The notes below the pieces were generated by a model, which was not told the origin of the DNA, ran no database searches, and saw only the letters and a program-made list of their open reading frames with translations. Source: Escherichia phage phiEco32. From it: DNA of 64,000 bases. The stretch is from the sequence record NC_010324.1; one strand, 5' to 3'. Below, in pieces: positions 31,006 through 31,843 of this stretch (position 1 is the first letter of the stretch; every line of letters starts with the position of its first letter). Both the position numbers and the translations under genes were made by a program.

Positions 31006-31220
31006 TTCACAACCTTAAATTTGAATGTTGTTGGGTGATAATAGTGCAACCTGTTAATGGTGTGCTTTGTTTCAAGGTATATCCTGCAAGAGTGACACAT
31101 GACATGAGTCAAACCGGTTACAGGATTAAACTTAAAGTTGGCGATAGGCTTCTCTTTCTTACAGAAGCTGCACACTTTATGTGTCATTAGTTCTCCAAAG
31201 TTTTCTTCAGAGCTGCCCAT
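31002..31220 (-). CDS. small zinc-ribbon protein
   Basis: 72 aa; CSFC...CHSC. Confidence 0.4.
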   Translation of the reverse strand: MGSSEENFGELMTHKVCSFCKKEKPIANFKFNPVTGLTHVMCHSCRIYLETKHTINRLHYYHPTTFKFKVVK

Positions 31221-31843
31221 GAGATTGGGTAGAGTTTAGCCATCTCTTCATCCAGAGATTTAGCAAACACTCGAACTTCGTATTGAGCGTGAGAGGAGAG
31301 TCGCTGACGACACAACTCAAACCAGCCATACAAAGAACCGGTCCACACCCACTCAGTGATCATCCCCTGAGGAAGAACAAATCGAGCTTGCTCTGGTGCA
31401 ATAAACTCAATCAACTTGTCATATGCTGCTAGAGAAGCTTCATATGCATCGTTAATCAGTATTAATGCTTCAGCTCGCTCTCCGTCGATGAGTTGAATCC
31501 CTGAACCTGCATGGAGGTCCGAAGGTCTCGCAAAAATCTCTTTAGGGATGAAGACTTCAACTGCTCCATCTTTATACCGCCGGGACATTTCGTTCCACGA
31601 GAATCCAACCTGATGCTTGCCCAACTGTCTCGCAATTGCAATAGGTGCTTTGCATCGGAAACTGACTTGCGGGTGTCGGAATGGGGTAACATGCTTCTCT
31701 CTTGCGAGGAAGTTGATGAGACGTTCATCACGTTCATTTAAATCACCTTCACGGGTTACGCCAAAGGAAACTCGAGCTGCGTTTACTACGCTACGATCGC
31801 TTCCCATAGCTTCGATTAATGTTGCTTGTAGTTGTTCATTCAT
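31187..31843 (-). CDS. thyX: flavin-dependent thymidylate synthase-like protein (ThyX-like, divergent signature)
   Basis: 218 aa; block HVTPFRHPQVSFRCKAPIAIARQLGKHQVGFSWNEMSRRY aligns by eye with the ThyX core but has KHQ where ThyX has RHR. Confidence 0.6.
   Translation of the reverse strand: MNEQLQATLIEAMGSDRSVVNAARVSFGVTREGDLNERDERLINFLAREKHVTPFRHPQVSFRCKAPIAIARQLGKHQVGFSWNEMSRRYKDGAVEVFIPKEIFARPSDLHAGSGIQLIDGERAEALILINDAYEASLAAYDKLIEFIAPEQARFVLPQGMITEWVWTGSLYGWFELCRQRLSSHAQYEVRVFAKSLDEEMAKLYPISWAALKKTLEN

What the first reader, a model, noticed from the sequence alone, without database searches (positions are those of the whole stretch)
31187..31843. ThyX-like protein with a non-canonical substrate-binding signature
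The protein aligns by eye with the ThyX core, but where ThyX has the RHR-x7/8-S motif this protein has KHQ-x8-S (KHQVGFSWNEMS). The altered residues are those that contact the nucleotide in ThyX, so the enzyme may act on a different substrate or be inactive. It sits with a dCTP deaminase, a dNMP-kinase-like protein and a HAD-type phosphatase, so a modified pyrimidine pathway is conceivable but not supported by anything else in the sequence.
Basis: partly seen in the sequence, partly recalled or inferred. Interest (0 to 1): 0.4.

Follow-up and report, generated by a model that had tools for sequence, protein, structure and literature searches.

The report
Phage ThyX with a remodelled motif
This phage gene is a flavin-dependent thymidylate synthase (ThyX) whose odd KHQ signature is the conserved hallmark of a large phage-only ThyX branch, not a defect, so it most likely still makes thymidylate for the phage's AT-rich DNA.

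Summary
Window 31187-31843 (- strand) encodes a 218-aa full-length ThyX (Pfam Thy1 E=2e-43; above the NCBIfam thyX equivalog cut-off). KHQ is kept in 119 of the 120 closest homologues (down to 53% identity), and K-H-x dominates the related cluster representatives and viral contigs. It travels with two other changes: one extra loop residue (x8 instead of x7) and Arg in place of Gly/Gln after the motif serine (S-R-R-Y). All residues that recognise and activate uracil are invariant (Tm numbering H53, Q75, E86, S88, R90, Y91, R147, R174). dN/dS is about 0.05-0.09. Some relatives carry an intein inside this loop. The window is a Kuravirus (phiEco32-like coliphage, 42% GC). A complete genome of the group has this ThyX as its only thymidylate synthase, plus dCTP deaminase and dNMP kinase. 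Best reading: an active dUMP-to-dTMP enzyme with a rearranged phosphate/FAD-binding loop. No member of the branch has been assayed in the literature I could reach. Gordonclarkvirinae resist restriction without a known DNA modification, so a modified-base role remains a low-probability alternative.

The parts
31187..31843 (-). thyX: 218-aa flavin-dependent thymidylate synthase of the K-H-x / S-R-R-Y phage subfamily
   Evidence: ORF; Pfam Thy1 E=2e-43; TIGR02170 above cut-off; PDB ThyX hits; 98-99.5% identical to the annotated thymidylate synthases of Kuravirus phages
31574..31618 (-). Codons for K76-H77-Q78-V-G-F-S-W-N-E-M-S87-R88-R89-Y90, the variant ThyX motif loop
   Evidence: Codons read from the sequence. 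Aligned to Tm R78..Y91 by phmmer, MAFFT and hhalign. K76, H77, Q78, G80, F81, W83, N84, E85, S87, R89 and Y90 are invariant in 34 homologues down to 53% identity
31853..31857 (-). AAGGA ribosome-binding site, 9 nt upstream of the thyX ATG
   Evidence: Read from the sequence. The same start is annotated in phage Paul with an RBS feature
33957..34490 (-). dCTP deaminase, proposed upstream supplier of deoxyuridine nucleotides
   Evidence: PF22769 E=4e-34; TIGR02274 equivalog 107.7 bits against cut-off 92.8; PHROG 1663
19333..20232 (-). deoxynucleoside monophosphate kinase (the C-terminal 176 aa carry the match), proposed dTMP to dTDP step
   Evidence: PHROG 139 E=5.5e-34 on 19333-19863; annotated as dNMP kinase in SU10 and Paul; Pfam gives only a weak AAA_18 match
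31859..32134 (-). thioredoxin gene immediately upstream in the same transcription direction. A link to ThyX is not shown
   Evidence: PF00085 E=2e-13
24303..24695 (-).
   Evidence: Sequence; no Pfam hit; PHROG 4919, unknown function

Best explanation
The gene encodes an active flavin-dependent thymidylate synthase that methylates dUMP to dTMP. It belongs to a large ThyX branch found essentially only in phages. In this branch the canonical R-H-R-x7-S-[G/Q]-R-Y loop has become K-H-[Q/K/T]-x8-S-R-R-Y. I infer that the phosphate-binding positive charge lost at the third triad position, and at the Tm R165 position, has been redistributed rather than lost. The candidate replacement is the new Arg directly after the motif serine (R88 here). 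In PBCV-1 ThyX the side chain at that position can reach the dUMP phosphate pocket. Most clade members also carry basic residues at Tm positions 169/172. In the phage the enzyme would work in a short pathway. Phage dCTP deaminase makes dUTP. Host dUTPase makes dUMP. ThyX makes dTMP. Phage dNMP kinase makes dTDP. This shifts the pyrimidine pool from C towards T for a 42% GC genome replicating in a 51% GC host. Shown: family membership, the motif alignment, clade-wide conservation, retention of the uracil-binding and catalytic residues, purifying selection, and the absence of another thymidylate synthase. Inferred: catalytic activity, the compensating role of R88, and the pathway order.
For: Full-length ThyX homology. 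Tm H53, Q75, E86, S88, R90, Y91, E144, R147 and R174 equivalents are invariant or nearly so in the query plus 150 cluster representatives. KHQ is fixed in 119/120 close homologues, and 34 homologues down to 53% identity keep the whole loop. The change is correlated. Position 89 is Arg in 143/151 clade sequences and in 80/80 viral loci. It is Q or G in 120/120 canonical RHR sequences and in Syn5, S-RIM2, Alice, RcCWillis and JG054. An intermediate with RHR plus SRRY exists (P0249). PBCV-1 Gln89 occupies the dUMP phosphate pocket in an inhibitor complex (PMC3498832). dN/dS is 0.045-0.085 among Kuraviruses. Inteins are inserted between F81 and S82 of the loop in clade members. In other phages KHx-type genes lie about 0.5 kb from ribonucleotide reductase (36 of 77 loci) and among PolA, primase-helicase, FEN and MazG genes. 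The complete SU10 genome annotates one thymidylate synthase, one dCTP deaminase and one dNMP kinase. It annotates no ThyA, no hydroxymethylase and no base-modifying transferase. A ThyA probe finds nothing. Window GC is 42.1%.
Against: I found no biochemical or genetic test of any K-H-x/S-R-R-Y member in the searchable literature. R78 and R80 are described as key, family-conserved ligand contacts (PMC3498832; PMC6514825). Their replacement could therefore weaken FAD or dUMP binding. Tm R165, a FAD-phosphate contact equivalent to Mtb R190, is also non-basic here (Y). The compensation idea could not be checked on a structure. The 80/89 correlation is clade-level and not phylogenetically independent. 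Gordonclarkvirinae are unusually restriction-resistant with no known modification pathway (PMC11990801).
Confidence: 0.72

Rival explanations
1. The enzyme still takes dUMP and methylene-tetrahydrofolate but releases a different C5 product, such as 5-hydroxymethyl-dUMP formed by water capture of the exocyclic-methylene intermediate. That product would feed a modified base that protects Kuravirus DNA from restriction.
For: [quoted passage not shown] The window has plenty of EcoRV (28), EcoKI (7) and EcoP1I (91) sites, so site avoidance alone does not explain this. The ThyX reaction passes through an exocyclic methylene (PMC8989533). A Thy1-domain hmdUMP synthase has been hypothesised for phage SP-15 (PMC5977210).
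Against: The same motif type occurs in hundreds of unrelated environmental phages, inside plain RNR and replication modules. No 5-hmdU DNA kinase, aGPT-Pplase, glycosyltransferase or dTTPase-like gene is annotated in a complete Kuravirus genome. The altered residues are phosphate contacts, not residues near C5. Kuravirus genomes are routinely sequenced, and phiEco32 termini were mapped by restriction profiling (PMC9965538).
Confidence: 0.08
2. It is a thymidylate synthase, but the remodelled loop changes cofactor handling. It might bind the flavin through a different set of contacts, bind it more loosely, or use FMN or another reductant instead of tightly bound FAD and NADPH. This overlaps the best explanation and differs only in mechanism detail.
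For: Three of the basic residues that reviews place on the FAD pyrophosphate and ribityl are changed: R78 to K, R80 to Q, R165 to Y. The replacement basic residues lie elsewhere (position 89, and positions 169/172 in 126/151 clade sequences).
Against: H79, S30 and the hydrophobic residue at position 81, which belong to the same site, are kept. R165 is His, not Arg, in some canonical enzymes as well (T. thermophilus, RcCWillis, JG054), so that position is naturally variable. There are no direct data.
Confidence: 0.15
3. It acts on a different nucleotide, such as UMP (as the polyoxin enzyme PolB does) or a cytosine nucleotide.
For: A neofunctionalised ThyX paralogue that methylates UMP exists (PMC5954106). 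The loop that closes over the substrate is one residue longer here.
Against: The Arg that reads uracil O4/N3 (Tm R174), together with R90, S88 and R147, is invariant. The protein is much closer to bona fide ThyX (E=3e-31) than to PolB 4p5a (E=2.5e-16). The genomic partners are deoxynucleotide enzymes.
Confidence: 0.03
4. It is an inactive relic or pseudo-enzyme.
For: Only the loss of two canonical arginines supports this.
Against: dN/dS is about 0.05-0.09. There are 64 invariant columns across homologues down to 53% identity. The gene has an intact start and RBS. It is retained in essentially all Kuravirus records found. Inteins are maintained in the loop.
Confidence: 0.02

Closest known systems
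Canonical flavin-dependent thymidylate synthase ThyX/FDTS (T. maritima TM0449, T. thermophilus, H. pylori, M. tuberculosis, PBCV-1 A674R)
   Same: Full-length Thy1 domain. All uracil-binding and activating residues are the same (S88, R90, Y91, R147, R174, E86, Q75, H53). The central His of the triad is the same. Length and predicted function are the same.
   Different: The triad is K-H-Q instead of R-H-R. There is one extra residue before the motif Ser (x8 against x7). Arg replaces Gly/Gln after the Ser. Tyr replaces Arg/His at Tm position 165. None of the solved ThyX chains whose alignments I inspected (T. maritima, T. thermophilus) has this loop.
Annotated ThyX of phiEco32-like phages (phiEco32, SU10, Paul, KBNP1711, NJ01; genus Kuravirus)
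   Same: It is the same gene at 97-99.5% amino-acid identity, in the same position between the Nlig-Ia 'ligase' and thioredoxin, and upstream of PhoH and PolA.
   Different: Nothing differs in sequence. These records simply call it thymidylate synthase. I found no paper that comments on the motif.
ThyX of Bacillus phage SP-15 gp9, Andromedavirus and large Streptomyces phages
   Same: All share the S-R-R-Y half of the signature and Lys at the first triad position.
   Different: Those proteins go further. His is replaced by Tyr (K-Y-[R/V/A]) and a 6- to 46-residue insertion sits in the loop. SP-15 has hypermodified thymine and a second Thy1 protein proposed as the hmdUMP synthase (PMC5977210).
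PolB, the ThyX paralogue of polyoxin biosynthesis (UMP/dUMP C5-methylase, PDB 4p5a)
   Same: It has the same fold and is an example of a ThyX paralogue with relaxed substrate choice.
   Different: It is only distantly related (E=2.5e-16, against 3e-31 to true ThyX). Its motif was not inspected here.

Membership tests
ThyX / FDTS (Pfam PF02511, TIGR02170) | Full-length homology to the Thy1 domain above curated thresholds | tested here: met
   PF02511 148.7 bits against 24.8; TIGR02170 equivalog 127.3 against 87.9; hhalign to a canonical ThyX profile at 100% probability, E=4.7e-43
ThyX / FDTS | Literal ThyX motif R-H-R-x7/8-S | tested here: not met
   K76-H77-Q78-x8-S87 lies at the aligned position. 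His and Ser are kept; both Arg are replaced
ThyX / FDTS | dUMP-binding and activating residues (Tm Q75, E86, S88, R90, Y91, R147, R174) | tested here: met
   All are present in the query and invariant or nearly so across 151 clade sequences
ThyX / FDTS | FAD phosphate/ribityl contacts (Tm R78, H79, R80, R165; S30) | tested here: inconclusive
   H79 and S30 are kept. R78 is K, R80 is Q, R165 is Y. Possible substitutes are R88 and R179, but no usable structure model was obtained
ThyX / FDTS | Homotetramer with bound FAD; NADPH- and CH2H4folate-dependent dTMP formation; complementation of thyA | not testable with these tools
   This needs protein biochemistry and genetics. No published assay of this clade was found
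PolB-type UMP C5-methylase | Closer similarity to PolB than to ThyX, and a nucleoside-antibiotic gene cluster context | tested here: not met
   4p5a E=2.5e-16 against ThyX 3e-31. The context is phage replication genes
Phage dUMP/dCMP hydroxymethylase (ThyA superfamily) | Homology to ThyA/Thymidylat_synt | tested here: not met
   Thy1 is the only Pfam match. A ThyA probe finds nothing in the window or in SU10 and Paul
Thymidine hypermodification pathway (5-hmdU DNA kinase, aGPT-Pplase, etc.) | Presence of the downstream modifying genes in the genome | tested here: not met
   None is annotated in the complete SU10 genome or in Paul. None appeared in Pfam scans of the window's larger ORFs

The most novel reading that the evidence does not exclude
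The K-H-x/S-R-R-Y ThyX branch, or at least its Kuravirus member, is not a plain thymidylate synthase. Instead it produces a C5-modified deoxyuridylate such as 5-hydroxymethyl-dUMP. Together with the dCTP deaminase and the neighbouring nucleotidyltransferase, this would give Gordonclarkvirinae a so far unrecognised DNA modification that explains their broad restriction resistance.
Probability: 0.07. Interest if true: 0.8.

Novelty: new variant of a known kind. Interest (0 to 1): 0.3.

Why it matters
If the reading is right, the gene is an ordinary pyrimidine-pool enzyme, and the finding only corrects an over-literal use of the 'RHR' signature. Two points give it modest value. First, a very large phage-restricted ThyX branch appears to do without two arginines treated as family-defining, and in the literature I could search it has never been assayed. 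It also has no solved structure among the chains I inspected. That makes it a natural experiment on how ThyX holds FAD and dUMP, which bears on ThyX inhibitor design and on motif-based annotation of viral thymidylate synthases. Second, the host phage group has an unexplained restriction-resistance phenotype. The published suggestion is dU-DNA. That suggestion does not discuss the conserved, selected ThyX, which argues against simple dU substitution. A nucleoside analysis would settle both questions.

Tried and rejected
The single-sequence model had pLDDT 43 and was discarded, so no fold search was run.

Papers with primary structural or mutagenesis data on the RHR residues were not held (Ulmer 2008, Koehn 2012, Mishanina 2016, and Savalia 2008 on phiEco32). 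I relied on two reviews that partly disagree on what R78 and R80 touch.

A profile search with canonical ThyX returned mostly cyanomyophage and Thermotoga sequences. The RHR-versus-position-89 correlation therefore rests on a biased canonical sample.

The genome-collection scan used fairly specific peptide patterns. It found only three relatives: a 526-bp contaminant-like scaffold, a MAG contig, and a frameshifted copy. This supports phage restriction of close relatives only.

I looked for the dCTP deaminase next to KHx-type thyX in other phages and found none. That pairing is specific to Kuraviruses, whereas RNR is the general neighbour.

I considered restriction-site avoidance as the explanation for RM resistance. 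Some sites are strongly avoided (CCWGG, BamHI, PstI, SacI), but EcoRV, EcoKI and EcoP1I are not.

PolB's own motif could not be displayed.

Full report
WHAT IS THERE

The finding's coordinates match an ORF on the minus strand, 31187-31843 (218 aa). It has an ATG start and an AAGGA ribosome-binding site 9 nt upstream. The protein is a full-length member of the flavin-dependent thymidylate synthase family:
- Pfam Thy1 PF02511, E=2.2e-43 over residues 8-206.
- NCBIfam TIGR02170 'thyX' equivalog, 127.3 bits against a cut-off of 87.9.
- PHROG 85 'thymidylate synthase'.
- Best solved relatives are T. thermophilus ThyX 6j61 (E=3e-31) and T. maritima ThyX (E=8e-25).

THE MOTIF

Three independent alignments agree: phmmer against PDB chains, MAFFT with 150 cluster representatives plus T. 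maritima ThyX, and an hhalign profile-profile comparison of 34 close homologues against six canonical ThyX (100% probability). The query reads ARQLG-K76-H77-Q78-VGF-SWNEM-S87-R88-R89-Y90. T. maritima reads ARQWF-R78-H79-R80-IA-SYNEL-S88-G89-R90-Y91.

WHERE THE WINDOW COMES FROM

The region is about 95% identical at the nucleotide level to Kuravirus phages (phiEco32-like, Gordonclarkvirinae; E. coli podoviruses with prolate heads). The protein is 97-99.5% identical to their annotated 'thymidylate synthase ThyX'. Gene order matches phages Paul and SU10: PolA, PhoH, Nlig-Ia 'ligase', thyX, thioredoxin, Dps-like DNA-binding protein, dCTP deaminase, nucleotidyltransferase, exonuclease, primase-helicase.

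THE DEVIATION IS A CLADE HALLMARK, NOT DECAY

- Of the 120 closest homologues in a 5.8-billion-protein collection (down to 53% identity), 119 read KHQ at this position.
- In an alignment of 34 of them, K76, H77, Q78, G80, F81, W83, N84, E85, S87, R89 and Y90 are all invariant.
- Among the query plus 150 representatives of clusters at 50% identity, the first triad position is K in 121 and R in 29. The third is Q 86, T 19, K 15, V 7, H 6, R 5. The residue after the motif Ser is Arg in 143.
- The best 80 IMG/VR viral loci read KHQ 51, KHK 21, KHT 4, RHT 2, KHE 2, and all have S-R-R-Y.
- By contrast, 120 sequences retrieved with a canonical ThyX profile are all RHR-x7-S-[Q/G]-R-Y. So are the ThyX of cyanophages Syn5 and S-RIM2, mycobacteriophage Alice, Rhodobacter phage RcCWillis and Pseudomonas phage JG054. 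That canonical sample is taxonomically narrow, so the correlation is clade-level.
- An intermediate with RHR plus SRRY exists (P0249).
- A further-derived group (Bacillus phages SP-15 and Andromeda, Streptomyces phage KentuckyRacer) has K-Y-[R/V/A], a loop insertion, and S-R-R-Y.

WHAT IS CONSERVED AND WHAT IS CHANGED

Conserved in the query, and invariant or nearly so across the clade (T. maritima numbering): H53, H59, R74, Q75, H79, E86, S88, R90, Y91, E144, R147, R174. These include the residues that the literature assigns to binding and shielding the uracil ring and the substrate phosphate (PMC6514825; PMC3498832).

Changed: R78 to K, R80 to Q, G89 to R, R165 to Y. Most clade members also have new basic residues at positions 169/172 (126 of 151 have K/R at one of them). 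The query has R at 172.

The reviews differ on the role of the triad. One places RHR on the FAD phosphates and ribityl, with the first Arg also touching the isoalloxazine and dUMP. The other lists R78 and R80 among direct dUMP hydrogen-bond donors. Either way these are phosphate-type contacts, not base-reading residues.

In the PBCV-1 enzyme the side chain at position 89 (Gln) can occupy the dUMP phosphate pocket. This is why I propose that the new Arg at that position takes over the lost charge. That step is inference. I could not test it on a model.

EVIDENCE THAT THE GENE IS FUNCTIONAL

- dN/dS against four other Kuravirus alleles is 0.045-0.085.
- Some clade members carry an intein with an HNH homing endonuclease exactly between the F and S of KHQxGF|SWNE. 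Inteins typically lodge in conserved active-site loops.
- In 77 unrelated viral contigs, KHx-type thyX sits in replication and nucleotide modules. A ribonucleotide reductase barrel protein is present in 36 loci at a median distance of about 0.5 kb. PolA, primase-helicase, 5'-3' exonuclease, endonuclease I and MazG are also common neighbours.
- No ThyA was found near any of them, nor in Kuravirus genomes.
- The complete SU10 genome annotates a single thymidylate synthase, a dCTP deaminase and a dNMP kinase. It annotates no dUTPase, RNR, DHFR, hydroxymethylase or base-modifying transferase.
- Close relatives are essentially absent from 100,044 species-representative cellular genomes. The three hits were a 526-bp scaffold, a MAG contig, and a frameshifted copy.

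HOW IT MOST LIKELY WORKS

dCTP is deaminated to dUTP by the phage dCTP deaminase (33957-34490). Host dUTPase gives dUMP. ThyX methylates dUMP to dTMP using methylene-tetrahydrofolate and reduced flavin. The phage dNMP kinase (19333-20232) starts the phosphorylation to dTTP. The window is 42.1% GC and E. coli is about 51% GC (my own knowledge), so shifting the pool from C to T makes sense. The pathway order and the catalytic activity are inferred, not shown.

THE ALTERNATIVE THAT KEEPS SOME INTEREST

[quoted passage not shown] It suggested dU-DNA on the basis of the dCTP deaminase and nucleotidyltransferase (PMC11990801). The passages retrieved from that paper do not mention ThyX. The window has many EcoRV, EcoKI and EcoP1I sites, so avoidance is not a full explanation, although CCWGG, BamHI, PstI and SacI sites are strongly depleted. 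A conserved, selected ThyX argues against simple dU substitution.

A ThyX-family hmdUMP synthase has been hypothesised for phage SP-15 but never shown (PMC5977210), and the ThyX mechanism does pass through an exocyclic methylene. Against this reading for the present gene:
- The same motif type is spread over hundreds of phages with ordinary contexts.
- No downstream modification genes are present.
- The changed residues are not near C5.
I give it about 7%.

COMPARISON WITH THE KNOWN, AND NOVELTY

The gene itself has been deposited and annotated many times. What I did not find described in the searchable literature is that it and a very large phage-restricted branch systematically lack the literal RHR signature and share a K-H-x-x8-S-R-R-Y loop. 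It fails one textbook membership feature (the literal motif) and meets all the others that can be tested by sequence. I therefore file it as a variant subfamily of ThyX that most likely works like ThyX.

VERDICT

The interpretation 'altered substrate or inactive' is not supported. The gene most likely has the ordinary function with a rearranged phosphate/FAD-binding loop (confidence 0.72). Interest is modest (0.3). It comes mainly from the unassayed subfamily and from the open question of restriction resistance in this phage group.

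Noticed in passing
window 1-64000 (whole window): Strong depletion of some restriction and methylation sites. CCWGG (Dcm/EcoRII) occurs 2 times against about 73 expected. BamHI, PstI and SacI occur 0 times against about 10. NcoI occurs once. ClaI occurs 5 times against 20. EcoRV (28), EcoKI (7) and EcoP1I (91) are not depleted. The BASEL study reports broad RM resistance of this phage subfamily with no known modification.
   Followed up: partly
homologues P0122 and P0189 (insertion point corresponds to window codons F81/S82, about 31598-31603): Members of the same ThyX clade carry an intein (Cys start, HN end, Ser +1, with an HNH homing endonuclease) exactly inside the variant motif: KHQSGF|C...HN|SWNERSMRY.
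   Followed up: partly
window 38376-47756 (-): The phiEco32-type cluster is present: gamma-glutamyl cyclotransferase, ATP-grasp enzyme, glutamine amidotransferase, amidoligase and COOH-NH2 ligase, with several unannotated ORFs. It is conserved in Paul and SU10. Its product is unknown.
   Followed up: no
window 34500-35870 (-): A 456-aa nucleotidyltransferase lies directly downstream of the dCTP deaminase. Its PolyA_pol head-domain match is weak and below the Pfam cut-off, and it matches PHROG 12715. SU10 annotates it as related to class II CCA-adding enzymes. The BASEL authors single it out as a possible DNA-modification gene.
   Followed up: no
window 56164-56961 (-): A 265-aa protein combines collagen triple-helix repeats with a C-terminal YadA-like membrane anchor (PF01391, PF03895). 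This is a trimeric-autotransporter-like architecture in a phage early region.
   Followed up: no
window 33341-33956 (-) and 28417-28960 (-): There are two sets of tandem small paralogous ORFs. The first is three ORFs of 69, 69 and 65 aa between the Dps-like gene and the dCTP deaminase, all ending in ...YY/HY. The second is two ORFs of 94 and 85 aa, both ending in ...FPKG(V).
   Followed up: no
window 30676-31005 (-): A stand-alone 109-aa protein consists only of the NAD+-binding Ia domain of NAD-dependent DNA ligase (PF22745, E=7e-35). Related phages annotate it as 'DNA ligase'.
   Followed up: no
window 24303-24695 (-): A 130-aa ORF begins MNIGLDYDDT (a DxDxT-like HAD motif I) and has a later WIDDFP. 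It has no Pfam hit, and PHROG 4919 is of unknown function. If it is a nucleotidase it would matter for the pyrimidine-pool question.
   Followed up: partly
window 17508-18348 (-) and 31002-31220 (-): HNH-type ORFs are interspersed among the middle genes. One is HNH_3 plus an AP2 domain. A 72-aa Cys-rich ORF overlaps the 3' end of thyX by 34 nt and has weak HNH PHROG matches. Related genomes differ here by homing-endonuclease insertions.
   Followed up: no
L085 (Bacillus phage SP-15 gp9), L086, L087: SP-15 (hypermodified thymine), Andromeda and Streptomyces phage KentuckyRacer have ThyX homologues in which even the motif His is replaced (K-Y-R/V/A). A 6- to 46-residue insertion precedes NE-S-RRY. 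SP-15 is reported to have a second Thy1 protein proposed as the hmdUMP synthase.
   Followed up: partly
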